NCBI GenBank assembly: GCA_964016885.1
Contig: OZ024749.1
Location: forward strand, 21,142,001 to 21,206,000
DNA from: Eledone cirrhosa
Lineage: Eukaryota
Direction of reading: 5' to 3'
DNA length: 64,000 bases
The position numbers and the translations under genes were made by a program. Under the pieces are notes generated by a model that saw only the letters and a list, made by a program, of their open reading frames with translations, made no database searches and had not been told where the DNA came from. Shown piece by piece: positions 15,182 to 15,525 of this stretch; position 1 is the stretch's first letter, and each line of letters starts with the position of its first letter.

Positions 15182-15525
15182 TAATATAAGATCAAAAGAT
15201 GGTTAAAGGAGTTCCATATATTTTATTATGCGCATTTCAAAAACAAACATCATCATGCAATAATATTTGTGTTTTCATCAGATAAAATAGGAGAACATGA
15301 TATGAAGGCTAAAAAACACTTGTGGATAGTGCAGTTTTAAATCAACATATATTGATATGTTGATTTAAAACTGCACTATCCACAAGTGTTTTTTAGCCTT
15401 CATATCATGTTCTCCTATTTTATCTGATGAAAACACAAATATTATTGCATGATGATGTTTGTTTTTGAAATGCGCATAATAAAATATATGGAACTCCTTT
15501 AACCATCTTTTGATCTTATATTATA
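15182..15525. mobile_element. foldback of a Penelope-like element 3' end (pLTR)
   Basis: near-perfect ~170-bp inverted arms, nearly identical to 59043-59211 at the end of a GIY-YIG element. Confidence 0.85.
15416..15486 (+). ncRNA. hammerhead ribozyme, type I
   Basis: tattttat-CTGATGA-aaaca...tgttttt-GAAATGCGCATA-ataaaata; mirror copy at ~15219-15290 on minus. Confidence 0.8.

What the first reader, a model, noticed from the sequence alone, without database searches (positions are those of the whole stretch)
15182..15525. A mini-foldback is the 3' end of an autonomous-type Naiad PLE
Seen: both arms match 59043-59211, the HHR-bearing terminus of the GIY-YIG element at 59043-61255. This links the short palindromic islands to a specific enzyme family. 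Inference: the other foldbacks are extreme 5'-truncated and inverted insertions of other PLE families or their dependants.
Basis: partly seen in the sequence, partly recalled or inferred. Interest (0 to 1): 0.7.

Follow-up and report, generated by a model that had tools for sequence, protein, structure and literature searches.

The report
Hydra retroelement's capped-end mirror insertion
This small mirror-image DNA insertion is the end piece of a young, high-copy Penelope-like jumping gene of the Hydra type (not Naiad), and it likely forms when two copying enzymes start at neighbouring sites near the front of the element's RNA and run off its capped start, which would explain how these elements make their odd inverted ends.

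Summary
Observation confirmed. Two identical 169-nt arms (15182-15350, 15355-15523) match 59043-59211 at 167/169. The left flank 15095-15181 is the element's own ~85-nt tail and belongs to the insertion.

The element is Hydra-clade, not Naiad: C-terminal GIY-YIG, DKT, CxCx5C, hammerhead motif. The window's long copy lacks its RT core; intact 800-aa copies exist elsewhere.

The arms are not random truncations. In a sample taken in chromosome order, 44 of 101 arms stop 169 nt from the end, versus 0 of 100 at the ribozyme site. Where a purine precedes that stop it is G in 85 of 100 (the template has C). All 28 head-to-head pairs are short-short or long-long, and 26 carry one tail.

Best reading (inferred, no RNA data): twin target-primed reverse transcription from both ends of the tail, running off the capped 5' end of the RNA.

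All five other foldback families tested fit: three adjoin Hydra-type ORFs, two are non-coding hammerhead tandem units. The inverted-pLTR-plus-tail layout and an octopus Hydra family are published, and the scan noted a similar stump in another genome. I did not find the fixed G-marked stop in print.

The parts
15095..15181 (-). Tail (about 85 nt). In full-length copies this sequence follows the upstream pLTR and begins the 5' UTR; here it is attached to the left arm only.
   Evidence: Same sequence follows one arm in many genomic copies and sits between the upstream pLTR and the ORF in near-full copies
15182..15350 (-). Left arm: last 169 nt of the element (pLTR), tail-bearing
15351..15354 (.). 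Spacer ATTG. The G directly precedes the right arm, where long copies have C (inferred cap-derived G).
   Evidence: genome-wide pattern
15355..15523 (+). Right arm: last 169 nt of the element, ending on (TA)n
15416..15486 (+). Type I hammerhead-like motif: core at 15424, GAAA at 15467, predicted cut after 15478. The mirror copy is at 15219-15289 on minus.
   Evidence: motif scan; not detected by Rfam
15524..16555 (.). (TA)n target microsatellite; TA repeats also lie left of the tail at about 15060-15094
59043..61063 (-). 5'-truncated Hydra copy: endonuclease half of the ORF (frame 60189-61073), about 1.1 kb of 3' UTR, and the pLTR terminus 59043-59211
   Evidence: 98% to intact copy L061; CxCx5C, LIY/YFG, CxxC and CxH motifs
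61061..61259 (+). Inverted piece of the same ORF's N-terminus (contains DKT), ending on TA repeats; about 1.1 kb of RT between the two pieces is absent

Best explanation
The insertion at 15095-15523 is a head-to-head pair of the last 169 nt of a Hydra-clade Penelope-like element, one arm carrying the element's 85-nt tail, and it was likely made by two target-primed reverse transcriptions that ran off the capped 5' end of the element's RNA. SHOWN: family identity, the fixed stop, the excess G, one tail per pair, matched arm classes, and near-identical partner arms. INFERRED: transcription starts 169 nt inside the upstream pLTR. The RT-endonuclease nicks both strands of a (TA)n target. One strand primes at the pLTR end and the other at the tail end, 85 nt further along the RNA. 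Both cDNAs stop at or before the cap, which is often copied as an extra base, and their 3' ends are joined bluntly or through the self-complementary ATAT. When the same pLTR-tail junction is used at the 3' end of a longer (tandem or read-through) RNA, the same reaction gives long arms and full copies. The mini-foldbacks would be dead-end by-products.
For: Fixed stop: 44 of 101 arms in the first matches along contig C1 stop at -169/-170 (one about 5 nt further up). Control: 0 of the first 100 listed of 8,878 matches stop at -45 to -53, the ribozyme cut site (Fisher p 7e-16). Extra G: 1,992 genome matches have a purine at -170; G in 85 and A in 15 of the first 100 listed (expected G share 0.34, p 1e-25). 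By-eye sorting of those 85: 36 could be short duplications, 16 could come from the opposite arm, 33 have no template. An extra G marks capped full-length L1 insertions (PMC11702581 passage). Pairing: 28 head-to-head pairs are 17 long-long, 11 short-short, 0 mixed (13.4 expected); 26 of 28 carry exactly one tail; 0 tail-to-tail. The tail-less arm is the longer one in 20 insertions and the tail arm in 3, with 15 equal and 8 left undetermined (hand reading); a single cDNA folding back cannot give the 20. Partner arms differ by 2.8 positions versus 11.0 for non-partners (short class), and all 12 listed polymorphic columns occur in both short and long arms. Literature: two internal RT start sites flanking the tail and extension of both strands in vitro (PMC11167929); Penelope transcript starts inside the upstream pLTR (PMC2377424 passages). 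A second family (5809 type) also stops at one place and often shows an additional G.
Against: No RNA 5'-end data were obtained. The stop coincides with the palindrome CATATG, and 5 of 11 short-short pairs overlap by ATAT, so local annealing may add to the pile-up. Near-full-length copies do not start at -169: only 2 of 14 upstream pLTRs measured begin at -169 or -174, several begin far upstream, and whole tandem monomers exist, so longer RNAs must also be templates. The 21393-type family stops inside the ribozyme's loop II with no G excess. The absence of mixed pairs is also expected from snap-back. The unbiased sample comes from the first 72 Mb of one contig (247 Mb for the G count).
Confidence: 0.68

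Rival explanations
1. Palindrome or structure hot spot with snap-back: one cDNA made from the RNA 3' end stalls at CATATG, folds back on itself and is copied into the second arm.
For: CATATG sits exactly at the stop; 5 of 11 short-short pairs are perfect palindromes; no mixed pairs. Self-priming was proposed for PLE palindromes (PMC3846280 passage) and snap-back is seen for R2 (PMC11371274 passages).
Against: It cannot give a short tail arm with a longer tail-less arm (20 versus 3). It does not predict the untemplated G. Many arms stop at -169 while the partner ends elsewhere or only TA lies upstream.
Confidence: 0.15
2. A separate short non-autonomous family (SINE- or retrozyme-like) transcribed from mini copies starting at -169 and mobilised in trans.
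For: It would give the same stop and G. Such dependants exist here: 530-nt and about 480-nt hammerhead tandem units. Nine of 42 short arms have only short nearest neighbours, and allele frequencies differ somewhat between classes.
Against: No diagnostic variants; 33 of 42 short arms have a long arm among their nearest neighbours. Junctions differ from copy to copy, so the foldback is not copied as a unit. In PAc the RNA needed lies partly downstream of the tail, which minis lack.
Confidence: 0.12
3. Ordinary random 5' truncation plus inversion, or a MITE-like DNA transposon.
For: Inverted arms in TA repeats resemble a MITE; long arms do end at variable places.
Against: The stop is sharply non-random. 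The one-sided tail, variable arm lengths and colinearity with an RT-endonuclease ORF exclude terminal inverted repeats.
Confidence: 0.05

Closest known systems
Hydra clade of C-terminal EN+ PLEs, including Hydra-1_Obim (Craig et al. 2021, PMC8557442; section 11 and supplement rows read)
   Same: Single ORF with RT then GIY-YIG; DKT; RW motif; CxCx5C linker; no CCHH; CxxC and CxH around E and N; hammerhead; (TA)n target. By eye the N-terminus resembles Hydra-1_Obim as printed.
   Different: A different family by eye (no alignment was run against it). RWT rather than RWK. The unit is about 3.9 kb rather than under 3 kb (Asn-rich linker, 1.1-kb 3' UTR). [quoted passage not shown]
Naiad clade (same paper)
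   Same: (TA)n target, inverted 5'-truncated copies, one-sided tail
   Different: Naiad has an N-terminal endonuclease, CxC, DKA, CCHH and no canonical hammerhead; none of these holds here. Its tail is 30-40 nt versus about 85 nt here.
Poseidon PAc in vitro (Frangieh et al. 2024, PMC11167929; parts 1-2 of 4 read)
   Same: Two RT start sites that bracket the tail; both target strands extended; uncleaved RNA used (here 100 of 100 arms read through the ribozyme site)
   Different: PAc starts at sites not homologous to the target, whereas both starts here lie at short AT stretches matching (TA)n. The parts read do not describe a fixed G-marked 5' stop or mini-foldbacks.
L1 twin priming and cap-derived extra G (PMC11702581 passages)
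   Same: Second priming by the other target strand; extra G at full-length 5' junctions. The window's long copy has an L1-like internal inversion with deletion.
   Different: In L1 the second primer lands upstream and gives non-overlapping inversions; here both primers start near one junction, so the arms overlap as a palindrome.
Non-LTR retrozymes as PLE dependants (bioRxiv 10.64898/2026.07.22.740005; part 1 of 5 read)
   Same: Describes two of the other window families (tandem non-coding hammerhead units)
   Different: The finding's own foldback is a monomer pair from a coding family, not a tandem array.

Membership tests
Naiad | N-terminal GIY-YIG endonuclease | tested here: not met
   Endonuclease is in the last ~140 aa of the 800-aa ORF
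Naiad | DKG motif changed to DKA | tested here: not met
   DKT
Naiad | CCHH with two cysteines inside GIY-YIG | tested here: not met
   One cysteine between LIY and YFG
Naiad | No canonical hammerhead | tested here: not met
   Core and three stems present by motif
Naiad | (TA)n target, inverted copies, tail | tested here: met
   shared with other PLE clades
Hydra | Single ORF, RT then C-terminal GIY-YIG | tested here: met
   L061 2603-5002, RDD motif then endonuclease. Pfam GIY-YIG only E 0.014, below cut-off, on the window piece; no relevant Pfam hit on the full protein.
Hydra | DKT | tested here: met
   SDKTNN
Hydra | RWK motif | tested here: inconclusive
   RWT at the matching place
Hydra | CxCx5C linker; no CCHH; CxxC and CxH flanking E and N | tested here: met
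   CNCRIKNKC; CNLC...EK; NRR...CLH (definition)
Hydra | Canonical hammerhead near the 3' end | tested here: met
   Motif match like the rows of File S2; Rfam did not detect it; activity untested
Hydra | (TA)n insertion | tested here: met
Hydra | Generally under 3 kb | tested here: not met
   Tandem unit about 3.9 kb; a typical trait, not a defining one
Hydra | Placement in the Hydra RT clade | not tested
   No tree with named Hydra proteins was built; the 17 homologues found (33-39% identity) are unnamed
MITE / TIR transposon | Fixed symmetric termini copied as a unit | tested here: not met
   One-sided tail in 26 of 28 pairs, variable centres and arm lengths
MITE / TIR transposon | Target-site duplication | not testable with these tools
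   Masked by (TA)n flanks

The most novel reading that the evidence does not exclude
The thousands of short foldbacks in this genome are 'strong-stop'-like run-off products of PLE twin priming. Each family's foldback centre marks its transcription start, so raw genome sequence records the PLE promoter position and shows in vivo that inverted pLTRs and tails come from two primings on the sense, capped RNA, not from self-priming on an antisense template.
Probability: 0.55. Interest if true: 0.68.

Novelty: new member of a known kind. Interest (0 to 1): 0.5.

Why it matters
How Penelope-like elements build their inverted pseudo-LTRs and one-sided tails is stated as unresolved in the papers read. 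This family gives countable genomic evidence for one model and names an exact predicted transcription start that a single 5'-end experiment can test. It also supplies a young Hydra family with dozens of intact ORFs for the in-vitro work that clade lacks, and suggests that many palindromic islands in such genomes, easily mislabelled as MITEs or miRNA hairpins, are PLE by-products.

Tried and rejected
Naiad: rejected on motifs. A second stop at the ribozyme cut site, suggested by a few copies near -45: rejected, 0 of 100. A first idea that the 21393-type foldback centre is simply the ribozyme's stem II loop: long copies show the arms stop inside that loop and the centres vary. Rfam over the whole window returned mostly miRNA-type hairpin matches below their cut-offs, plus one tRNA match; only the best 150 of 493 were shown. 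Sequencing runs: no RNA holder listed; DNA reads and contigs laid on the element gave nothing on the -169 junction in the rows shown. The first DNA search was biased to the query's own junction, so counts use pattern searches in chromosome order instead. The attempt to map upstream pLTR starts failed for 16 of 30 loci (junction not found) and was not used for counts. The comparison of whole-arm differences was one base out of register and was redone. Searches timed out (58 finished one family and part of a second). Literature searches for the fixed stop or extra G in PLEs found none, but the library lacks most subscription papers.

Full report
OBSERVATION. The window is 32% GC and about one third simple repeats. 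The foldback has two 169-nt arms, 15182-15350 and 15355-15523, identical to each other and 2 substitutions from 59043-59211. The arms point outward and are joined at their 5' ends by ATTG. The right arm ends on (TA)n. The left arm continues into 15095-15181 and then TA repeats. That stretch follows one arm in many other copies, and in near-full copies it lies between the upstream pLTR and the ORF, so it is the PLE tail.

THE ELEMENT. The window copy has a 294-aa endonuclease frame on minus and a short DKT-containing frame on plus. Against an intact copy it is the 3' 2.0 kb plus an inverted 199-nt piece, with about 1.1 kb of RT missing. Of 12 loci I picked as likely complete, 7 have an open frame of 820 codons or more. 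About 48 of 138 scored protein matches lie in an 821-codon frame (hand count), at 98-100% identity. The 800-aa protein (L061) has RW, DKT, the RT core, an Asn-rich linker, CxCx5C, a GIY-YIG without the cysteine pair, CxxC and CxH. These are the Hydra features of PMC8557442 section 11 and contradict Naiad. That paper's supplement lists a low-copy octopus family, Hydra-1_Obim, similar but distinct by eye. Exact 27-mers count 6,665 (-156), 6,378 (-169) and 2,420 (-181, across a polymorphic site, so a lower bound) matches in the 3-Gb genome.

THE FIXED STOP. I took the first 100 matches along contig C1 with their flanks, which gave 101 arms. Of these 44 end at -169/-170 (one about 5 nt further up) and 57 continue. 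As a control, the first 100 listed of 8,878 matches at the ribozyme cut site all continue for at least 9 nt (the pattern excluded T at the first position). In the 44 short arms the preceding base is C 17, T 12, G 11, A 4; many of the C cases are perfect palindromes overlapping by ATAT. A genome-wide pattern with a purine at -170 gave 1,992 matches, G in 85 and A in 15 of the first 100, against an expected G share of 0.34. Sorted by eye, 36 of the G cases could be short duplications of the arm start, 16 could derive from the opposite arm, and 33 have no template; about 3-5 of the A cases have none. The window's own spacer ends in G. An extra G is the mark of cap copying in full-length L1 (PMC11702581, passage). 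The stop falls at C|A, and the two other families with a visible stop fall at T|A and C|G; the pyrimidine-purine start rule is recalled, not from a call.

TWO PRIMINGS. Among 28 adjacent minus-plus pairs, 17 are long-long, 11 short-short and none mixed; 26 have exactly one tail and there are no tail-to-tail pairs. Reading by hand, the tail-less arm reaches further upstream in 20 insertions and the tail arm in 3; 15 are equal and 8 were left undetermined (alignment breaks, complex structure or no tail). A cDNA started at the tail end could fold back only into an equal or shorter second arm, and one started at the pLTR end contains no tail, so the 20 cases need two primings on RNA. Partner arms are much more alike than non-partners (2.8 versus 11.0 differences for short, 3.9 versus 7.1 for long), and short and long arms share all 12 listed variant columns, so minis arise repeatedly from several subfamilies. 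This matches the in-vitro finding of two start sites bracketing the tail and extension of both strands (PMC11167929, parts 1-2) and transcription from inside the upstream pLTR (PMC2377424, passages). It differs from the antisense self-priming proposal (PMC3846280, passages).

AGAINST. No RNA evidence was available. The stop coincides with a 6-bp palindrome. Upstream pLTRs of near-full copies begin at -169 or -174 in only 2 of 14 measured, and complete tandem monomers exist, so templates longer than the proposed transcript are also used. One of the other families shows no G excess. Samples come from one contig. The ribozyme is supported by motif only; PLE hammerheads with palindromic stem III are reported to be weak and dimer-dependent (PMC4209133, passages).

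OTHER FOLDBACKS. Five window families were searched genome-wide. The 21393 type: 5 of 30 sampled arms are long, and two loci share 1.47 kb at 94% with a Hydra-type endonuclease at the same distance. The 5809 type: abuts Hydra ORF pieces in two loci, adjacency only. The 46813 type: colinear with a full but frameshifted Hydra ORF. The 35819 and 58201 types: non-coding tandem units with hammerhead cores; a few Hydra hits near these loci were taken as neighbours and not examined. At least eight further foldbacks were not tested, four of them without a hammerhead core.

COMPARISON AND VERDICT. It is a member of the Hydra clade on motifs (tree not built) and works like other EN+ PLEs. The inverted copy and one-sided tail are published (PMC8557442). 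An octopus repeat annotation (PMC13282606, passages) counts recently active Penelope families but has no occurrence of 'palindrom'. Searches found no report of a fixed, G-marked stop in PLE foldbacks; bioRxiv supplements and most subscription papers could not be seen. The scan holds one note of a similar stump in another genome (e1-9912484), seen after my reading was set and not checked. Verdict: real, correctly linked to a PLE, wrongly named Naiad; a new family of a known kind whose copies carry a testable clue to the PLE insertion mechanism. Interest 0.5.

Noticed in passing
window 19546-19730, 21393-21569, 43843-43967, 51774-51963: Four copies of a second foldback-plus-tail family (13,338 exact matches). 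25 of 30 sampled arms stop inside the hammerhead's loop II or nearer the end; long copies carry a Hydra-type endonuclease about 1.26 kb upstream (L215, L216).
   Followed up: partly
window 5757-5911 (tail also near 3029-3073, 43552-43659): Third family (4,729 matches). Arms stop a few bases before the hammerhead core, often with an additional G; two loci abut Hydra ORF pieces (L218 inverted endonuclease, L220 N-terminus with DKT), not shown as one colinear ORF.
   Followed up: partly
window 46813-47431: Foldback with tail of another Hydra family (450 matches), colinear with a frameshifted RT-endonuclease ORF in L342 and L344; its ribozyme core is a variant.
   Followed up: yes
window 35819-36719: Non-coding ~530-nt hammerhead unit with tail, in tandem and inverted arrangements (1,038 matches); retrozyme-like dependant, parent element not found.
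   Followed up: partly
window 58201-58942 and 37093-37414: Non-coding ~470-510-nt hammerhead unit with a (TA)n stretch inside the repeat unit, in arrays of up to 8 units (421 matches).
   Followed up: partly
window 53654-57909: A further Hydra-type endonuclease frame at 54570-54977 (38% identity), a long downstream region, and a hammerhead core at 57745; whether they are one element was not tested.
   Followed up: partly
window 14033-14345, 20191-20397, 44848-45075 with 47931-48166, 6768-7123: Foldbacks or inverted pairs with hammerhead cores by motif, not extended genome-wide.
   Followed up: no
window 34692-35005, 20542-20760, 7496-7757, 45135-45428: Foldbacks with no hammerhead core in my scans; 45373-45443 matches tRNA in Rfam (44 bits), suggesting a folded-back tRNA-SINE.
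   Followed up: no
L347, L348: Complete tandem monomers of the finding's family (unit about 3.9 kb, tail between units, 97% protein identity to L061).
   Followed up: partly
window 479-1207, 37684-41127, 33238-34460: Unrelated repeats seen in the self-comparison: a degenerate tandem array, a 790-nt direct repeat in a GC-richer 3.7-kb island, and a 550-590-nt family with four copies in the window.
   Followed up: no
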